Of a DNA stretch of 30,815 nucleotides, positions 25,691 to 30,815 are shown in pieces. The first letter of the stretch is position 1, and every line of letters begins with the position of its first letter. The notes under the pieces are model-generated. The model saw only the letters and a program-made list of their open reading frames with translations. It ran no database searches and was not told where the DNA came from. The stretch comes from a virus. The position numbers and the translations under genes were made by a program. The stretch lies in the UHGV virus genome UHGV-0021747; one strand, given 5' to 3'.

Positions 25691-26239
25691 TTATTTAGCT
25701 AATTTTTTCCAGATTGCTGAAACGTATTTGGCTTGGTGGATGGCATCATCAAGCGCGTTGTGGCGAGTTCCTTTGAATGGCATATCTCGCTTAGGGTCAA
25801 ATCCTATTACCTTTCCAAGCTCGACGATTGTTCTTACGTCGCGGTCATTCCACCACTGCCACGGAACTGGCTGCCCTGTCAGCGAATAACTGTTGCGGAG
25901 AATAACGCAGTCAAATGATGCTCCATTCCCCCAAACCTGAACGAATTTGTGGTTAGCGTTCTTTATGATGAATTCAGATAACCATGAAAGAGCCGTTGAA
26001 AGCTCCTGAGTGTTGCTGGTTAGCGATTTTCTGGCTTCTTCACTCTGTTCCATCCACCATAAAATCGTTGAAGCGTCAGGACGCGCCCGATATCGCATTG
26101 ATGACTCAAGCGAGATATTTACCGAGAACTCTTCTCCTGTTTCTCCGGTATTCGGGTCAAAGAACACCGCCCCAATAGAAATAACTGGCGCGTATGGCCC
26201 GTTGCCCATTGTTTCAAGGTCAACCATTAAGTGATTCAT
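25691..26239 (-). CDS. DEDDh-type 3'-5' exonuclease
   Basis: MVDLETMG (Exo I motif) and HNALDDA (Exo III motif) at the expected spacing. Confidence 0.75.
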   Translation of the reverse strand: MNHLMVDLETMGNGPYAPVISIGAVFFDPNTGETGEEFSVNISLESSMRYRARPDASTILWWMEQSEEARKSLTSNTQELSTALSWLSEFIIKNANHKFVQVWGNGASFDCVILRNSYSLTGQPVPWQWWNDRDVRTIVELGKVIGFDPKRDMPFKGTRHNALDDAIHQAKYVSAIWKKLAK

Positions 26240-26247
26240 GTAAGTCC

Positions 26248-26727
26248 TTAAATTGCGTGAATAGTGTGACGAGGGAAGGGGAGAGTTACTGGCTCCTCGT
26301 CTGGGTAGATAGGTTTGTTATGTTTGTGCCACTCGACATGACATGACTTGCAGAGCCACATCACATCGGTTGGTTTGCTGTAGTCGCAGTGGTGCGCCTG
26401 TGGTTTACATTCTGATCCGCAGCACTCACATTGTGGTGGTCGGATTAGCTTACCGTCGCGCAAAAAATTACCCACGATGATGTGGGCTTTTCTTTTCCAT
26501 GGGTTGCTCTGAATGAACCGCTTTTTGGCTGCGTTACACCGTTCTCTGCCGCGTTCCGATGATTGATATTCTCTCCTTGCTGATACTCGATGTGGCAATC
26601 CCGCGCGCTCTTTGTCATATTCAGCCAGGCAAGCCCGGCAAGCGGCAGTTAATCCATCTCTGGATGCTCTTCTGATTTGAAAGTCCCTTTCTTCCTTCTG
26701 TTGATGGCATCTTGAGCAGATTTTCAT
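26248..26727 (-). CDS. HNH endonuclease
   Basis: Cys pairs and HHCDYSKP...WLCKSCHVEWH are characteristic of an HNH/zinc-finger nuclease. Confidence 0.7.
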   Translation of the reverse strand: MKICSRCHQQKEERDFQIRRASRDGLTAACRACLAEYDKERAGLPHRVSARREYQSSERGRERCNAAKKRFIQSNPWKRKAHIIVGNFLRDGKLIRPPQCECCGSECKPQAHHCDYSKPTDVMWLCKSCHVEWHKHNKPIYPDEEPVTLPFPRHTIHAI

Positions 26728-26736
26728 ATTCAGCTC

Positions 26737-27210
26737 CTAGAACGGAATATCCGAATCGTCGAAGTTCATAGGTGGTTCGCTGTGATTTCCATGCTGCTGA
26801 GGTTGCTGTCTTTGTTGATGACCGTTATTTCGCTGAGGTGAAGACTGTTCATTGCCTCCTTGCTTGCCACCAAGCATTTGCATGGTTCCACCAACGCCCA
26901 CGATGACTTCGGTAGTGAACCTATCCTGTCCGCTTTGATCCTGCCATTTTCTTGTCCGCAATTTGCCTTCAAGATAAACCTCAGAGCCTTTTCGCAGATA
27001 TTCGCTGGCAATTTCTGCCAGTTTCCCGCTCATTACCACACGGTGCCACTCCGTCTGCTCCTTTTGCTCTCCAGTTTGCTTATCACGCCATTGTTCTGAC
27101 GTAGCAACTGTAAGGTTTGCAAATGCCGTTCCTGATGGTGAATATCTGATTTCTGGATCATGCCCAAGGCGACCAATAATGATCACCTTATTTACGCCTC
27201 TGCTTGCCAT
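26737..27210 (-). CDS. ssb: Single-stranded DNA-binding protein
   Basis: Near-identity over the OB-fold to E. coli SSB as recalled ([10 protein letters not shown]..., [42 protein letters not shown]), with the C-terminal DDSDIPF tail. Confidence 0.95.
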
Positions 27211-27918
27211 TTATGCCGCCTGTTTTAGTTCGTTAACTCTGATGCTCATTACCTGAACGCATTTAGCCTGCGCCTCCTCGTTGCCAGCCATTAATTGCCA
27301 GTCACGCTGATAACGCTCGATGAGTTTTTTCTTGTCAGTTTCTGTTGATGCATAATCGCTGAAGTCTTTCAGGATTTGTTCGCAGTCAACCGATGGAGAT
27401 TTCTGGTTGGTATTTTCTGGTGATGGTTTGTTATCTGATGCTGGGATTGCCCATCCCGGAAGTGATGGAGGGAGCCAGTAAAATCCCGTTCCATCCTTCA
27501 GTTTTGCCCTGTGCCACCCCTGCTTTTTATCGAGAGATGTTTGTGCGAAACCTTCCTCAAGGTTATACAGATACCGACCGATTCCCCACTGAACGGCAGC
27601 ACGCTTCATTGCACCGGAACGACCACCTTTGACGGCTTCTACCTGCGTGTTTTCAGCAGCATCCCATTTGGTTACCCATTCGGAATCAATCTTGATTGAT
27701 ATGCCGCATTCAACTCCGCCGTTGTTGGGAATATCGCGGTATTCATTGCGCCATCCTGCTTTGCCGCAAACATCGTCCAGGCGTTTCATGATTGCCCGGT
27801 TCGTGACATAAGCCAGCACCATAGCCCACACTTTTCCATCGCGTGTTTTACCGCTTTGCTGTATTCGCCATTCGATATCTTCAGGGCTGAATGGCTCGTC
27901 GAATTTATTCAAATTCAT
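27211..27918 (-). CDS. Single-strand annealing recombinase (Rad52/Sak-like N-terminal domain, Erf-like C-terminal tail)
   Basis: GGRSGAMKRAAVQWGIGRYLY motif in the N-domain; C-terminal ...TETDKKKLIERYQRDWQL...KCVQVM.IR.NELKQ resembles the P22 Erf C-terminus as recalled. Confidence 0.75.
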   Translation of the reverse strand: MNLNKFDEPFSPEDIEWRIQQSGKTRDGKVWAMVLAYVTNRAIMKRLDDVCGKAGWRNEYRDIPNNGGVECGISIKIDSEWVTKWDAAENTQVEAVKGGRSGAMKRAAVQWGIGRYLYNLEEGFAQTSLDKKQGWHRAKLKDGTGFYWLPPSLPGWAIPASDNKPSPENTNQKSPSVDCEQILKDFSDYASTETDKKKLIERYQRDWQLMAGNEEAQAKCVQVMSIRVNELKQAA

Positions 27919-27926
27919 AATTCACC

Positions 27927-28097
27927 TCAGAATGGACATGGCCCAAGGAAATAACGCTGATTTAATACTTCGACTCGGGACAAATTAAGGCATACCAGCA
28001 TTCCTTCGCGGTCGCCATTATGGCGATACCAGAGAGCTTTCTGCGTGTACATGCGTCTCTGTAACTTGCTCTCCTTCACTGTGGTTGCAAGTGACAT
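27927..28097 (-). CDS. Small ORF (56 aa), positional arf candidate
   Basis: Hand-translated; strong AAGGAG Shine-Dalgarno 7 nt upstream, and its stop overlaps the recombinase ribosome-binding site. Confidence 0.35.
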   Translation of the reverse strand: MSLATTVKESKLQRRMYTQKALWYRHNGDREGMLVCLNLSRVEVLNQRYFLGPCPF

Positions 28098-28176
28098 GAA
28101 TATCTCCTTCGTTACCGATTAATTCTTTCATCTGACGAATAAATTCTTCGTCTGACCAGTTATCTGTAAAACTCAT
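28018..28176 (-). CDS. Small acidic ORF (52 aa), overlaps 27927..28097 in another frame
   Basis: Hand-translated; ATGA-coupled to the upstream ORF. Only one of the two overlapping frames is likely to be real. Confidence 0.25.
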   Translation of the reverse strand: MSFTDNWSDEEFIRQMKELIGNEGDIHVTCNHSEGEQVTETHVHAESSLVSP

Positions 28177-28325
28177 TTCCTGCGATACCACGGAAGGTTG
28201 ATAGCTGATTTCATTGCTTTATTTGCTTCAAGCCACATTTTTGAATCACCAATAAATCTGGCTATTACTGCTTTGTTCTGTGCAGCACGAAGCATCTGGT
28301 GATTAATAGCTATTTCATTGCGCAT
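28173..28325 (-). CDS. Small protein (50 aa), possibly Kil-like
   Basis: Hand-translated; GGAGG Shine-Dalgarno. Contains ...IARFIGDSKMW..., reminiscent of lambda Kil from memory. Confidence 0.35.
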   Translation of the reverse strand: MRNEIAINHQMLRAAQNKAVIARFIGDSKMWLEANKAMKSAINLPWYRRK

Positions 28326-28444
28326 AACGCCTCCAGTTGTTTCTTTGCTGCTCTGATTAATTGTTTAACTCGGCGTGATAATTCAGATTCGTGCGGGTAG
28401 AAAGCGGACATGACGCCGCTACCCGCGAGCTGAAAGTGCATCAT
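28310..28444 (-). CDS. Small protein (44 aa), possibly CIII-like
   Basis: Hand-translated; AAGGAG Shine-Dalgarno. Central ESELSRRVKQLIRAAKKQLEAL resembles the lambda CIII amphipathic helix. Confidence 0.4.
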   Translation of the reverse strand: MMHFQLAGSGVMSAFYPHESELSRRVKQLIRAAKKQLEALCAMK

Positions 28445-28510
28445 GGGTAACTCCTTATATTTGATTGCATAACGAAAATGCCTCTAGTGAAGCATTATTG
28501 GTATACATAT

Positions 28511-28533
28511 AAAAAAACCCTCACACTGGAGGG
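28511..28533 (-). terminator. Rho-independent terminator candidate (minus strand)
   Basis: Hairpin ccctc-N6-gaggg followed by a U7 tract on the minus strand. Confidence 0.5.
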
Positions 28534-28650
28534 CAAAGAAGATTTCCAATAATCAGAACAAGTCGGCTCCTGTTTAGTTACGAGCGACATTGCTCCGTGT
28601 ATTCACTCGTTGGAATGAATACACAGTGCAGTGTTTATTCTGTTGTTTAT

Positions 28651-28678
28651 GCCAAAAATAAAGGCCGACTATTCGGCC
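28651..28678 (-). terminator. Rho-independent terminator candidate (tL1 analogue) at the 3' end of the acidic gene
   Basis: Hairpin ggccga-ctat-tcggcc followed by uuuauuuuugg on the minus strand. Confidence 0.5.
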
Positions 28679-28992
28679 TTATCTACATTCCTGAACCAAA
28701 CGCAGATCGGACCGTCTTCTGTATCGTGAATCGAACCGACAAACCATCCTTCTCCATCTGGCATGCTTGGCTCCCATCCACTGATGTTTTGATTCCCATC
28801 TTCAAAATACGCGTCAATTACCGTTTGATTGTTGTCGTTTTCCATTTCAACAATTGATGATTCAATGCCATGCTGCTTGCAGAAAGATCTGAACTCATCA
28901 GCTGAAATTACCTCTCTATCCCCAAACAGGTTGGCGTATTCTGGGTGCGTCCAGTAGCCATCCTCGCTTCGCTCTACTACTAATGCTTCCAT
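28669..28992 (-). CDS. Acidic hypothetical protein (107 aa), immediately downstream of N
   Basis: GGTGAG Shine-Dalgarno overlaps the N stop, with an 8-bp intergenic gap. Strongly acidic (many D/E); no family recognised. Confidence 0.6.
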   Translation of the reverse strand: MEALVVERSEDGYWTHPEYANLFGDREVISADEFRSFCKQHGIESSIVEMENDNNQTVIDAYFEDGNQNISGWEPSMPDGEGWFVGSIHDTEDGPICVWFRNVDKAE

Positions 28993-29000
28993 ATCTCACC

Positions 29001-29327
29001 TCAAATAAGTGGTTTACTGCCTAATTTCATTTTCTGGCGACCAACACAAGTTACACCCATTTCACTGCGTGGCTTGCTGTACCATGTGCGCTGATTCTTG
29101 CGCTCAATACGTTGCAGGTTGCTTTCAATCTGTTCGTGGTATTCAGCCAGCACTGTAAGGTCTATCGGATTCAGTGCGCTTTCTACTCGTGATTTCGGTT
29201 TGCGATTCAGCGAGAGAATAGGGCGGTTAACTGGTTTTGCGCTTACCCCAACCAACAGGGGATTTGCTGCTTTCCATTGAGCCTGTTTCTCTGCGCGACG
29301 TTCGCGGCGGCGTGTTTGTGCATCCAT
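29001..29327 (-). CDS. N: Antitermination protein N (lambda-type)
   Basis: MDAQTRRRERRAEKQAQWKAANPLLVGVSAKPVNRPILSLNRKPKSRVESALNPIDLTVLAEYH.QIESNLQRIERKNQRTWYSKP reads as essentially lambda N. Start taken at the internal Met of the supplied ORF. Confidence 0.9.
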   Translation of the reverse strand: MDAQTRRRERRAEKQAQWKAANPLLVGVSAKPVNRPILSLNRKPKSRVESALNPIDLTVLAEYHEQIESNLQRIERKNQRTWYSKPRSEMGVTCVGRQKMKLGSKPLI

Positions 29328-29499
29328 CTGGATTCTCCTGTCAGTTAGCTTTGGTGGTGTGGTAGGTGGGAGACCCATTTCGACCTGCTTCGGCCGACTT
29401 CAATTCGGCAATAGTTCCGCAGGCCTCGCCGCTTTACGTGCGACATATTCCCATCCATGAACCCTTCACCACACCCCAAAGCCTTCTGCTTTGAATGCT

Positions 29500-29530
29500 G
29501 CCCTTCTTCAGGGCTTAATTTTTAAGAGCA
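29500..29530 (-). promoter_or_regulatory. nutL site: boxB GCCCTGAAGAAGGGC and boxA-like TGCTCTTAA
   Basis: Reverse complement of 29500..29514 is the lambda boxB hairpin exactly; boxA-like sequence at 29522..29530. Confidence 0.85.
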
Positions 29531-29574
29531 CCACCTTCATGGTGGTCAGTGCGTCCTGCTGATGGCTTAAAATA

Positions 29575-29654
29575 TACCTACAGGTAAAACATCTGTCTAT
29601 ACCTGTAGGTAAATATAATTGATGTGAGAGTTTACCTGCTTGAATTTTCAGGTA
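29575..29654. promoter_or_regulatory. OL/pL operator region: palindromes TACCTACAGGTA (29575..29586, 29600..29611) and split TACCTG-N10-CAGGTA (29633..29654)
   Basis: Repeated 12-bp palindromes upstream of the N leader, identical to sites upstream of cI. Confidence 0.55.
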
Positions 29655-29671
29655 ATTAATTTTTTGGATTG

Positions 29672-29697
29672 ATATAAAAAAGCCCGCTTTGCGGGCT
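29672..29697 (-). terminator. Rho-independent terminator ending the cI operon
   Basis: Hairpin agcccgc-aaa-gcgggct followed by uuuuuuaua on the minus strand. Confidence 0.6.
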
Positions 29698-29708
29698 GAA
29701 AGGAGATG

Positions 29709-30023
29709 TCAGAAGCTATTTGGATTGCTTGGCCATTGCGGCAATTTTGATTCTACTGGGGTGTGTTTGGGTTTGAGTCCGTTTAAGTAGTCAAGGCGCT
29801 CAATGGCGCATTTATACATAGCAATCTGCTCTGATGACATGTCGTCGTATGACATGCCTTTGAACTTTTTAATTATCGATTCTGCCTCATGTATAAGATG
29901 CTTCTTCCTCATGAGTTCAGCTGTATGCTTAGAGCTTACAGGAGATAACTTTGCCCATATGAAGCAGATGATTACAACAGCGACTACTATGCCGGGTATA
30001 AACATTTGCTGCTTTATCCTCAA
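29709..30023 (-). CDS. Small single-pass membrane protein (104 aa) translationally coupled to cI
   Basis: ATGA overlap with the cI stop. N-terminal hydrophobic helix IPGIVVAVVIICFIWAKL then a charged soluble domain. AT-rich; followed by the operon terminator. Confidence 0.6.
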   Translation of the reverse strand: MRIKQQMFIPGIVVAVVIICFIWAKLSPVSSKHTAELMRKKHLIHEAESIIKKFKGMSYDDMSSEQIAMYKCAIERLDYLNGLKPKHTPVESKLPQWPSNPNSF

Positions 30024-30706
30024 ACTTTTGGCAGATCGTCCTGGTCTACGTACCTGGTGTGTTTCACAATAGCTGAAACAAAATGCATTTTATCAACTTC
30101 TTCAACAGGAAGAGTGATTGGGCGGTGATCACTGTTTATGCTACTAAACTGATAATCACCGTCTCTTGTTTTGTTCATGATCTTTATCATGTTGTGACCG
30201 TCTTTGGTCCTTACAAAGACTTCATCACCTGGATGTACTGGCGTATTTGGTTCAATAACAACATATTCTCCTGACTGAATCCTTGGCCACATGCTGTCAC
30301 CCTTAACCTTCAGACCGTAAGCATCTTTATCGCCGCTGTAGATGCTTAACCAACCGGATCTGAATTCAATCATATCCACTGAGCCATCAACTCCCAAAAC
30401 GGCTTCACCAATTACCGGAACAAAACCCGCACGAACGTTACCCGCAAACTCAAGATGGTCCGTAGCTCCAGCTTTACCATCTGCAAGCATGTCCATCCAT
30501 CCGCGTGGGAGATTAAAAGATTTTTCAATTAGTTCCATCATATCGTCAGCAATGCGTTTTTTTCCGCTTTTTCCTTCCGGATACAGCATTCTGGAAACGT
30601 ATGATGGTTCCCTTTCTATTCGACGAGCCAACTCTGAGGCCTTTCCATTACAGAATCGGTCTCTTATCTCTATCAGCCTTAGTCGTCTTTGTTCGTATTT
30701 ATCCAT
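30020..30706 (-). CDS. cI: cI-type prophage repressor (N-terminal HTH plus S24 LexA-like autopeptidase domain)
   Basis: Ala-Gly cleavage-site candidate (GKAGAT), GDSMWP catalytic Ser motif and a downstream Lys (MIKIM); 228 aa. Confidence 0.9.
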   Translation of the reverse strand: MDKYEQRRLRLIEIRDRFCNGKASELARRIEREPSYVSRMLYPEGKSGKKRIADDMMELIEKSFNLPRGWMDMLADGKAGATDHLEFAGNVRAGFVPVIGEAVLGVDGSVDMIEFRSGWLSIYSGDKDAYGLKVKGDSMWPRIQSGEYVVIEPNTPVHPGDEVFVRTKDGHNMIKIMNKTRDGDYQFSSINSDHRPITLPVEEVDKMHFVSAIVKHTRYVDQDDLPKV

Positions 30707-30726
30707 GATTTAATTCTATCTTTGAT

Positions 30727-30778
30727 TACCTGCCGGTAAATAACCTATGGGTATTGATTTGCTTTTTACCTACAGGTA
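30727..30778. promoter_or_regulatory. OR operators: TACCTGCCGGTA (30727..30738) and TACCTACAGGTA (30767..30778) between cI and the cro start
   Basis: Same palindrome family as OL. GGAAGGAG Shine-Dalgarno at 30799..30806 points to a rightward cro-like gene starting just past the window. Confidence 0.5.
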
Positions 30779-30815
30779 AACTCATCTTATTCAACAACGG
30801 GAAGGAGATAGCAAA

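What the first reader, a model, noticed from the sequence alone, without database searches (positions are those of the whole stretch)
27927..28444. Cluster of four small overlapping ORFs (arf/kil/cIII-like) between the recombinase and the tL terminators
Hand translation finds ORFs of 44 to 56 aa with good Shine-Dalgarno sequences and ATGA-type overlaps. Two of them (27927..28097 and 28018..28176) overlap for about 80 nt in different frames, so one is probably not real or the region uses overlapping coding. The tentative Kil-like and CIII-like assignments rest on short remembered motifs only.
Basis: partly seen in the sequence, partly recalled or inferred. Interest (0 to 1): 0.35.

Follow-up and report, generated by a model that had tools for sequence, protein, structure and literature searches.

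The report
Four small early-left prophage genes
This is the well-known run of small early genes of an HK97/HK022/Sf6-type lambdoid prophage (cIII, kil and two tiny proteins of unknown function just before the recombinase), and the odd 80-base overlap is real but ordinary: both small genes are genuine, and only one reading frame is under selection where they overlap.

Summary

cIII and Kil are clear Pfam members (PF08134, 2e-30; PF06301, 1.7e-20). ORF3 and ORF4 are the genes annotated as gp42.1/gp42 in HK97 and HK022 and as gp30/gp29 in Sf6. The DNA is 97-98% identical to phages ECP1 and Sf6, and it matches 1094 of 5426 complete E. coli genomes.

Both overlapping ORFs are real genes.
- ORF4 belongs to the HK620 HkaM family. 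It is a 56-62 aa helical hairpin ending in an invariant FLGxxPF. It sits 7-13 nt upstream of the annealing-protein gene, whichever of four recombinase types that is (one locus has an HNH gene between).
- ORF3 has a conserved WSDEEFIRxM core, with pN/pS 0.29 in its own frame.

In some relatives the two genes meet at a 4-nt ATGA. The 68-95 nt overlap is therefore a secondary run-on of ORF3. Inside it only the ORF4 frame is constrained (ratio 0.13, against 4.2 for the ORF3 frame).

Neither ORF is a demonstrable P22 Arf homologue. The function of ORF3 and ORF4 remains unknown. This is already annotated and of low novelty.

The parts
28310..28444 (-). cIII, HK022-type (44 aa). By family knowledge it is the FtsH-inhibitory lysogeny factor.
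   Evidence: PF08134 at E=2e-30, covering 1-37 of 37 profile positions; phrog_550. Lambda-type PF02061 scores only 12.4 bits, below its 25.7 cut-off. SD AAGGAG at 28456-28451. Annotated as CIII in HK97, HK022 and Sf6.
28173..28325 (-). kil (50 aa), the host cell-division inhibitor peptide.
   Evidence: PF06301 at E=1.7e-20, covering 1-31 of 31 profile positions; phrog_2055 at 1.2e-35. PGAP names it 'host cell division inhibitory peptide Kil'. It overlaps the cIII 3' end by 16 nt. SD GGAGG at 28334-28330.
28018..28176 (-). ORF3 (52 aa), equivalent to HK97/HK022 gp42.1 and Sf6 gp30. It is a small acidic protein with a conserved N-terminal core, MSFTDNWSDEEFIRQMKELIG. Its last 26 codons run into ORF4.
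   Evidence: phrog_2123 at 9e-42. The ATG overlaps the kil stop (ATGA, 28176-28173). First 20 codons against Pseudocitrobacter: pS 0.82, pN 0.19. 16-codon core over 35 distinct sequences: pN/pS 0.29 in frame, against 1.65 and 2.39 off frame. The family is 32-60 aa long and occurs in several gene contexts.
27927..28097 (-). ORF4 (56 aa), equivalent to HK022 gp42 and Sf6 gp29, and a member of the HK620 HkaM family. Predicted helical hairpin with an invariant C-terminal FLGxxPF. It lies immediately upstream of the recombinase gene.
   Evidence: phrog_1723 at 6e-35. Stand-alone homologues occur in Salmonella, Erwinia and Kluyvera phages or prophages. hhalign against HkaM: 91.9%, E=7e-7. AlphaFold2: helices 7-27 and 30-51, pLDDT 94. 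All relatives end in PF. Variant-allele N/S ratio is 0.13 in the overlap and 0.24 outside it.
28018..28097 (-). The 80-nt region read in two frames: the ORF3 tail and the ORF4 N-terminus.
   Evidence: 15 variant alleles across 68 distinct sequences. Ten are synonymous in ORF4 and non-synonymous in ORF3, four are non-synonymous in both, and one is the reverse of the first class. Binomial p=0.0085 for enrichment at ORF4 third positions. The ORF3-frame ratio is 4.2.
28104..28109 (-). Shine-Dalgarno AAGGAG for ORF4, embedded in ORF3 codons 23-25 and 6 nt before the ATG at 28097.
   Evidence: Read directly from the sequence.
27211..27918 (-). Rad52/22-family single-strand annealing protein (235 aa), the gene that ORF4 precedes by 8 nt.
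   Evidence: PF04098 at 4.8e-26; phrog_1097 at 9e-130.
28517..28534 (-). tL-type intrinsic terminator hairpin upstream of cIII. A second lies at 28680-28661 and a weaker one at 28496-28477.
   Evidence: Terminator scan. HK97, HK106 and HK620 annotate terminators (tL2-type in HK620) at the equivalent place.

Best explanation
The segment is the middle of the N-antiterminated early-left (pL) operon of an HK97/HK022/Sf6-like lambdoid prophage. It holds four real small genes, read leftwards as one tightly packed translational unit.

1. cIII (HK022 type). By family knowledge it inhibits the host protease FtsH. That stabilises CII and favours lysogeny.
2. kil. By family knowledge it blocks FtsZ-ring assembly and so cell division.
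3. ORF3 (gp42.1/gp30 type). A small acidic peptide whose functional part is the N-terminal ~20-25 residues (WSDEEFIRxM core). It most likely starts by termination-reinitiation at the kil stop (ATGA).
4. ORF4 (HkaM family). A 56-aa helical hairpin with an invariant C-terminal FLGxxPF, started from its own strong SD inside ORF3.

Shown here:
- Both ORF3 and ORF4 are under purifying selection as proteins.
- Some relatives have them as neighbours joined by a 4-nt ATGA. The 80-nt overlap therefore arose when ORF3 lost its original end and ran on into ORF4.
- Within the overlap only the ORF4 frame is constrained.

Inferred:
- ORF4 serves the recombination module. It almost always sits 7-13 nt before the annealing-protein gene.
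- It probably acts on a host or generic partner rather than on one recombinase. The same ORF4 allele (at least 90% identical) precedes either a Rad52-type or an ERF-type recombinase.
- The molecular functions of ORF3 and ORF4 are unknown.
For: Family matches:
- cIII, Kil, Rad52-like SSAP, SSB and N.

Identical gene order in reference phages:
- HK97, HK022 and Sf6 are annotated the same way.
- DNA is 97-98% identical to ECP1 and Sf6.

ORF4 is a real gene:
- Full-length stand-alone homologues at 48-77% identity, with no overlapping ORF3.
- The N-terminus is conserved in its own frame.
- N/S ratios are 0.13 and 0.24.
- It lies directly upstream of Rad52-like, two ERF subtypes or a Sak4-like AAA_24 gene.

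ORF3 is a real gene:
- pN/pS is about 0.23-0.29 in deep comparisons, against more than 1.6 in the other frames.
- In nearly all the lineages examined, its start overlaps the stop of whichever gene lies upstream, cIII or kil.

The overlap is secondary:
- L239-L243 have a 34-aa ORF3-like gene joined by ATGA to a 60-aa ORF4-like gene.
- HK140-type phages have a 35-aa form and no ORF4.
- The ORF3 end varies, 52 aa against 56 aa, with ORF4-synonymous changes.
Against: - There is no direct translation evidence (ribosome profiling or proteomics) for either ORF.
- Within the shallow window-type clade the ORF3-only part looks only weakly constrained: 21 non-synonymous to 7 synonymous variant alleles, ratio 0.59.
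- ORF3's own SD is poor.
- The deep ORF3 set was gathered with peptide patterns, which biases it towards amino-acid conservation.
- For HkaM, the one functional test in the literature found that Sak4 plus SSB alone gave the full oligonucleotide-recombineering activity of the whole module. HkaM was therefore not needed in that assay (PMC5928155).
- Structure searches gave no significant match.
Confidence: 0.78

Rival explanations
1. Only ORF4 is a gene. ORF3 is a chance ORF in DNA that is conserved for other reasons, for example as a mosaic boundary sequence or an mRNA leader for ORF4.
For: - The ORF3 SD is poor.
- Shallow-clade variation in the ORF3-only part is close to neutral, ratio 0.59.
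- The first 17 codons are shared at 93-96% DNA identity with HK140-type phages, as expected of a recombination boundary.
- There is no Pfam or NCBIfam family.
Against: - In lineages where the DNA has diverged (63-72% identity), the peptide core is kept through synonymous changes. pS is 0.65-0.84 against pN 0.19-0.27, and the other two frames give ratios above 1.6.
- The ORF is intact, with a start coupled to the upstream stop in nearly all cases, in at least five lineages with different neighbours.
Confidence: 0.1
2. True doubly constrained overlapping coding: the 26-residue ORF3 tail encoded inside ORF4 is itself functional and under selection.
For: Long overlaps of 68-95 nt recur in four lineages: the window type, the SPN9CC type, L202/L204 and Pseudocitrobacter.
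Against: - In the overlap, 14 of 15 variant alleles change the ORF3 residue, giving a ratio of 4.2.
- The tail length differs, 52 aa against 56 aa.
- The tail is absent from the 32-35-aa family members.
- The same frame is open for at least 68 nt in 45% of ORF3-less homologues, so no selection is needed to keep it open.
Confidence: 0.07
3. Programmed ribosomal frameshifting joins ORF3 to ORF4, making an 82-aa fusion protein like the annotated HK97 gp42.
For: - The HK97 reference encodes such a fusion through two extra bases.
- Fused 81-82-aa variants exist in public data, one of them on 36 contigs.
Against: - By eye there is no slippery site, no stop-codon shift motif and no prfB-like context in 28018-28097.
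- The fusion junctions are scattered along the overlap, as random indels would be.
- The HK97 insertions are unique among 245 loci and 858 E. coli genomes.
- ORF4 keeps its own Met, its SD and a conserved N-terminus, and it occurs alone or joined by ATGA in relatives.
Confidence: 0.03
4. Only ORF3 is a gene and ORF4 is spurious. This is the implicit reading of many RefSeq annotations.
For: PGAP annotates ORF3 but not ORF4 in some E. coli genomes. Window-type ORF4 is unannotated in 28 of 29 sampled genomes.
Against: - ORF4 is the better conserved of the two. It has stand-alone homologues down to 34-48% identity, all of them 56-62 aa long and ending in PF.
- Purifying selection is strong in its frame.
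- The structure prediction is confident.
Confidence: 0.02

Closest known systems
HK97 genes 42/42.1-kil-cIII, HK022 genes 42/42.1-43-44, and Sf6 genes 29-32
   Same: - Same four genes in the same order, with the same overlaps.
- 94-98% DNA identity.
- Followed by an annealing-protein gene and preceded by tL-type terminators.
   Different: - HK97 and HK022 carry an ERF-family recombinase where the window and Sf6 have a Rad52-type one.
- The HK97 record has two extra bases that fuse ORF3 to ORF4.
- The HK022 allele of ORF4 is 80% identical, and its ORF3 is 56 aa long.
HK620 HkaM (NP_112046), the small gene between kil and sak4. It was first labelled 'arf' by position. Function unknown (PMC5928155).
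   Same: - Same family as ORF4: hhalign 91.9%, E=7e-7, over 52 columns.
- Same size class and a C-terminal ...PF.
- Same position, 8 nt upstream of the recombinase gene.
   Different: - About 33% identity, and 62 aa long.
- It follows kil directly by ATGA, with no ORF3-like gene.
- The recombinase is Sak4 (RecA-like), not Rad52-like.
P22 Arf (accessory recombination function, PF17585)
   Same: - Same operon slot, kil - small gene - annealing-protein gene.
- ORF3 shares a short N-terminal motif followed by an acidic stretch: D-F/W-x-D-E-E-F-I.
   Different: - No significant sequence relationship. ORF3 gives no Pfam hit and hhalign 15%. ORF4 gives hhalign 0.15%.
- Arf is a single 47-aa gene, whereas this locus has two genes.
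Lambda CIII and lambda Kil
   Same: - Kil is a full-length match to the Lambda_Kil family.
- cIII has the same position and size class, and an HK022-type cIII match.
   Different: The window cIII fails the lambda-type PF02061 threshold (12.4 bits against 25.7). It belongs to the separate HK022-type family PF08134.

Membership tests
cIII protein family, HK022 type (PF08134) | Sequence match above Pfam's gathering score over the whole model. | tested here: met
   104.7 bits against a cut-off of 25, covering model positions 1-37 of 37.
cIII protein family, HK022 type (PF08134) | Inhibits FtsH and stabilises CII. | not testable with these tools
   Functional property. Only inferred from family membership.
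Lambda_CIII (PF02061) | Sequence match above the gathering score. | tested here: not met
   12.4 bits against a cut-off of 25.7, E=0.17.
Lambda_Kil (PF06301) | Sequence match above the gathering score over the whole model. | tested here: met
   72.6 bits against a cut-off of 27.6, covering model positions 1-31 of 31; phrog_2055 at 1.2e-35.
Lambda_Kil (PF06301) | Blocks cell division when expressed. | not testable with these tools
   Needs an expression or filamentation assay.
P22 Arf (PF17585) | Sequence or profile similarity to Arf, tested for ORF3. | tested here: not met
   No Pfam hit at E<=10 for any of 8 ORF3-family members. PHROG Arf at E=0.044 over 22 residues. hhalign probability 14.9% over 17 columns. 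A real Arf sequence scores 113.5 bits as a positive control.
P22 Arf (PF17585) | Sequence or profile similarity to Arf, tested for ORF4. | tested here: not met
   hhalign probability 0.15%. No Pfam hit.
P22 Arf (PF17585) | Small gene immediately upstream of the annealing-protein gene in the pL operon. | tested here: met
   ORF4 ends 8 nt before the Rad52-like gene. This shows position only, not homology.
HkaM / phrog_1723 family (ORF4) | Profile similarity over the full length, length 56-62 aa, C-terminal FLGxxPF or ...PF. | tested here: met
   phrog_1723 at 6e-35. hhalign against HkaM at 91.9%, E=7e-7. Alignments show an invariant terminal PF.
HkaM / phrog_1723 family (ORF4) | Location directly upstream of the phage annealing-protein gene. 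| tested here: met
   Gap of 7-13 nt, or a short overlap, in essentially all of about 180 loci and across four recombinase types. One locus has an HNH gene between.
gp42.1 / phrog_2123 family (ORF3) | N-terminal W-[ST]-D-[DE]-x-F-I-R-x-M core in a 32-60-aa ORF that starts at the stop codon of the upstream gene. | tested here: met
   phrog_2123 at 9e-42. Core conserved. ATGA with the kil stop.

The most novel reading that the evidence does not exclude
ORF4/HkaM is a generic, host-directed accessory factor of phage recombination modules. Its invariant C-terminal ...PF tip imitates the C-terminal tip of SSB (E. coli DDDIPF; HK620 SSB NDYPPF, shown to be needed to stimulate Sak4). It would therefore compete for, or recruit, SSB-client proteins at recombination intermediates.

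This would explain two things:
- The same allele travels with unrelated recombinase families.
- The last residues are the most conserved part of the protein.

The evidence here is circumstantial only: conservation, gene position and motif resemblance. ORF4 lacks the acidic run of true SSB tails.
Probability: 0.12. Interest if true: 0.55.

Novelty: already known. Interest (0 to 1): 0.2.

Why it matters
It matters mainly for annotation. The locus occurs in about a fifth of complete E. coli genomes (1094 of 5426). Automated pipelines annotate the two overlapping genes inconsistently and usually omit ORF4, which is the better conserved one.

It is also a clean, small example of how a long same-strand overlap arises. 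One gene runs on past its lost stop codon, and only the invaded gene's frame stays constrained.

Finally, it flags two widespread small proteins of unknown function sitting at the entrance of phage recombination modules. The HkaM family has an invariant PF C-terminus, and the other family has the WSDEEFIR core. Both would be cheap to test genetically.

Tried and rejected
- **Rfam scan of 26000-30815.** Only chance-level hits, so no known RNA explains the region.
- **NCBIfam.** Nothing for any of the four small proteins.
- **Foldseek of the ORF4 model against PDB and BFVD.** Only generic helical-hairpin matches, all with E>0.1. Uninformative.
- **Exhaustive HMM search with the ORF4 profile.** Only 21 representative clusters. 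The few long multi-domain proteins among them matched weakly over short or repeated stretches and were not examined.
- **Arf homology for either ORF.** Rejected.
- **Programmed frameshift.** Considered because of HK97 gp42. Rejected because the HK97 insertions are unique and the fusion junctions elsewhere are scattered.
- **Plus-strand ORFs in the segment (25-34 aa).** No support, and not pursued.
- **First viral-contig scan with the ORF4 alignment.** It returned only near-identical loci. Divergent single queries were needed to get diversity.
- **Literature searches.** No functional study of gp42/gp42.1 or gp29/gp30 was found.

Full report
**1. What is there**

All coding in this part of the window is on the minus strand.

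| ORF | Coordinates | Length |
|---|---|---|
| cIII | 28310-28444 | 44 aa |
| kil | 28173-28325 | 50 aa |
| ORF3 | 28018-28176 | 52 aa from the ATG |
| ORF4 | 27927-28097 | 56 aa |

Genes around them:
- Transcriptionally upstream: a lambda-type N gene (29001-29378), a 107-aa ORF (28669-28992) and two or three terminator-like hairpins.
- Downstream: a Rad52/22-family annealing protein (27211-27918) and an SSB (26737-27210).

This is the early-left (pL) operon of a lambdoid prophage.

Junctions between the genes:
- cIII and kil overlap by 16 nt.
- The ORF3 ATG overlaps the kil stop (ATGA, 28176-28173).
- ORF3 and ORF4 overlap by 80 nt, with ORF4 in the +1 frame.
- The ORF4 stop lies inside the SD of the recombinase gene.

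cIII, kil and ORF4 have good SD sequences. ORF3 has only AGGA, 1 nt from its ATG.

**2. cIII and kil**

- The 44-aa protein matches the HK022-type cIII family PF08134 at 2e-30 over the whole model. It fails the lambda-type PF02061 threshold.
- The 50-aa protein matches Lambda_Kil PF06301 at 1.7e-20 over the whole model. PHROGs agree.
- RefSeq names them 'host cell division inhibitory peptide Kil' and, in some genomes, 'protease FtsH-inhibitory lysogeny factor CIII'.

**3. The locus is already annotated in reference phages**

- The 651-nt segment is 97.4% identical to phage ECP1 and 94-98% identical to mEpX2, mEp235, HK97, HK022 and Sf6.
- It matches 1094 of 5426 complete E. coli genomes.
- HK022 (genes 42, 42.1, 43, 44) and Sf6 (genes 29-32) annotate both overlapping ORFs as found here.
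- HK97 annotates an 83-aa gene 42 and a nested 58-aa ORF.
  - The alignment shows the HK97 record has two extra bases, CATGT[C]ACACGC[G]AG. These fuse the ORF3 N-terminal part to the ORF4 C-terminal part.
  - None of 245 fetched loci shares the variant. No E. coli genome reaches 99% identity to it, and the best matches are two bases shorter.
- Fused 81-82-aa proteins also occur in the large protein collection. Their junctions are scattered along the overlap, which is the pattern of sporadic indels.

**4. Is ORF4 real? Yes**

Full-length homologues occur without any overlapping ORF3.

| Source | Identity to window ORF4 |
|---|---|
| Salmonella phage ABTNLsp11242 | 77% |
| Kluyvera prophage | 64% |
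| Erwinia phage vB_EhrS_59 | 48% |

- In many Salmonella phages a 62-aa relative follows kil directly by ATGA.
- The family aligns from Met1 to the invariant C-terminal PF.
- An exhaustive profile search finds only 21 representative clusters, so the family is small.
- AlphaFold2 predicts a confident helical hairpin: helices 7-27 and 30-51, pLDDT 94. No informative structural neighbour was found.
- HK620 HkaM belongs to this family: hhalign 91.9%, E=7e-7.
  - Hutinet et al. (PMC5928155) record that HkaM was first labelled 'arf' by position, has no homology to P22 Arf and is of unknown function.
  - They also found that Sak4 plus SSB alone reproduce the oligonucleotide-recombineering activity of the whole module.

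**5. Is ORF3 real? Probably yes**

- Its first ~20 codons are shared with short ORFs in other contexts:
  - after cIII in HK140, as a 35-aa ORF;
  - in SPN9CC, as a 60-aa ORF;
  - in Pseudocitrobacter, as a 53-aa ORF with a GTG start;
  - and in many IMG/VR contigs, as 32-51-aa ORFs.
- Window against Pseudocitrobacter over 20 codons gives pS 0.82 and pN 0.19.
- Over 35 distinct 16-codon cores, pN/pS is 0.29 in the ORF3 frame, against 1.65 and 2.39 in the other two frames.

Two caveats apply:
- These loci were collected with peptide patterns, which biases the set towards amino-acid conservation.
- Within the shallow window-type clade the ORF3-only part is only weakly constrained, ratio 0.59.

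**6. What the overlap is**

- In contigs L239-L243 a 34-aa ORF3-like gene is joined to a 60-aa ORF4-like gene by a 4-nt ATGA. The two genes therefore exist as ordinary neighbours.
- Long overlaps occur in four lineages: 68, 80, 86 and 92-95 nt.
- In 68 distinct window-type sequences the overlap carries 15 variant alleles:
  - 10 are synonymous in ORF4 and non-synonymous in ORF3;
  - 4 are non-synonymous in both;
  - 1 is synonymous in ORF3 and non-synonymous in ORF4.
- Enrichment at ORF4 third positions gives a binomial p of 0.0085.

Site-normalised non-synonymous to synonymous ratios:

| Region and frame | Ratio |
|---|---|
| ORF4 frame, inside the overlap | 0.13 |
| ORF4 frame, outside the overlap | 0.24 |
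| ORF3 frame, inside the overlap | 4.2 |
| ORF3 frame, ORF3-only part | 0.59 |

- The ORF3 end moves from 52 aa to 56 aa with changes in ORF4.
- In homologues that lack ORF3, the same alternative frame is open for at least 68 nt in 17 of 38 distinct proteins. No selection is needed to explain the open frame.

The overlap is thus a run-on of ORF3 into ORF4, and the ORF3 tail is a passenger.

**7. Relation to Arf and to recombination**

- A P22-type Arf scores 113.5 bits on PF17585.
- ORF3 and its relatives give no hit. hhalign gives 15% over 17 columns. ORF4 against Arf gives 0.15%.
- Only the short motif D-[FW]-x-D-E-E-F-I links ORF3 and Arf.
- ORF4 homologues lie 7-13 nt, or a short overlap, upstream of the annealing-protein gene in essentially all of about 180 loci. 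One locus has an HNH gene between.
- That recombinase gene may be Rad52-like, either of two ERF subtypes, or a Sak4-like AAA_24 ATPase.
- The same ORF4 allele (at least 90% identical) precedes ERF in 53 loci and Rad52-like in 44.

I infer a role tied to the recombination module but not to one recombinase family. This is association only. Zheng et al. (PMC12315714) note that even the molecular functions of P22 Arf and Abc1 are unknown.

**8. Annotation note**

- In RefSeq E. coli genomes PGAP sometimes calls ORF3 and not ORF4, and sometimes calls neither.
- The ORF4-specific 3' part of the window-type allele has no annotated feature in 28 of 29 sampled genomes.
- The better supported gene is therefore the one usually omitted.

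**9. Verdict**

'Arf-like' holds only for position. Both overlapping ORFs are genuine, but the overlap is an unremarkable secondary run-on. The locus is already annotated in classic phages, so novelty is low. The open question is what the two small proteins do.

Noticed in passing
window 28445-28668 (minus strand): The 224-nt non-coding stretch between the 107-aa ORF and cIII is at least 90% identical in 329 phage records, including Stx-converting and lambda-like phages. As RNA it folds far better than shuffled sequence (z=-5.8). It has a 14-bp hairpin and two or three terminator-like hairpins. There is no Rfam match. It is probably the tL2-type terminator and cIII-leader region that acts as a mosaic boundary sequence.
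   Followed up: partly
L001 (HK97 NC_002167) 2611-2632: The HK97 reference has two single-base insertions 7 nt apart. They fuse the ORF3 N-part to the ORF4 C-part, giving the annotated 83-aa gene 42. None of 245 loci shares the variant, and no E. coli genome reaches 99% identity to it. It is either a sequencing error in the 2000 record or a laboratory-strain mutation.
   Followed up: yes
L244, L245 and E. coli hits H213-H241: RefSeq/PGAP annotation of the overlapping pair is inconsistent. ORF3 is called in some genomes, and cIII is often labelled only 'hypothetical protein'. Window-type ORF4 has no feature in 28 of 29 sampled genomes, although it is the better conserved gene.
   Followed up: partly
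proteins P0036, P0054 (ORF3 relatives): Some Salmonella and E. coli copies of ORF3 carry in-frame tandem duplications of the core heptapeptide FIRQMKE, two or three copies. This suggests slippage on a 21-nt unit that the protein tolerates.
   Followed up: no
L006 (HK140) 1501-1897; L189-L238: The ORF3-like small gene also precedes an unrelated ~103-aa gene (MMILTLNDKRE... / MRLSLTDVKE...). In HK140 that gene is followed by a RecT-type recombinase. ORF3-like genes therefore mark the entrance of more than one kind of recombination module.
   Followed up: partly
window 29001-29378 (minus strand): The N ORF as listed (125 aa) begins 16 codons upstream of the lambda-like start MDAQTRRRERR. The N36 domain maps to residues 19-53, so the true start is probably the ATG at 29330.
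   Followed up: no
window 28669-28992 (minus strand): The 107-aa ORF between N and the terminators matches only positions 58-159 of the 194-position phrog_1372 profile (unknown function). PGAP labels the gene at this place 'DUF2528 family protein' in one genome and 'superinfection exclusion protein' in another. It may be an N-terminally shortened member.
   Followed up: no
window 26737-27210 (minus strand): The phage SSB ends in ...FDDSDIPF, the canonical SSB C-terminal tip. ORF4 and all its relatives also end in PF, but without the acidic run.
   Followed up: no
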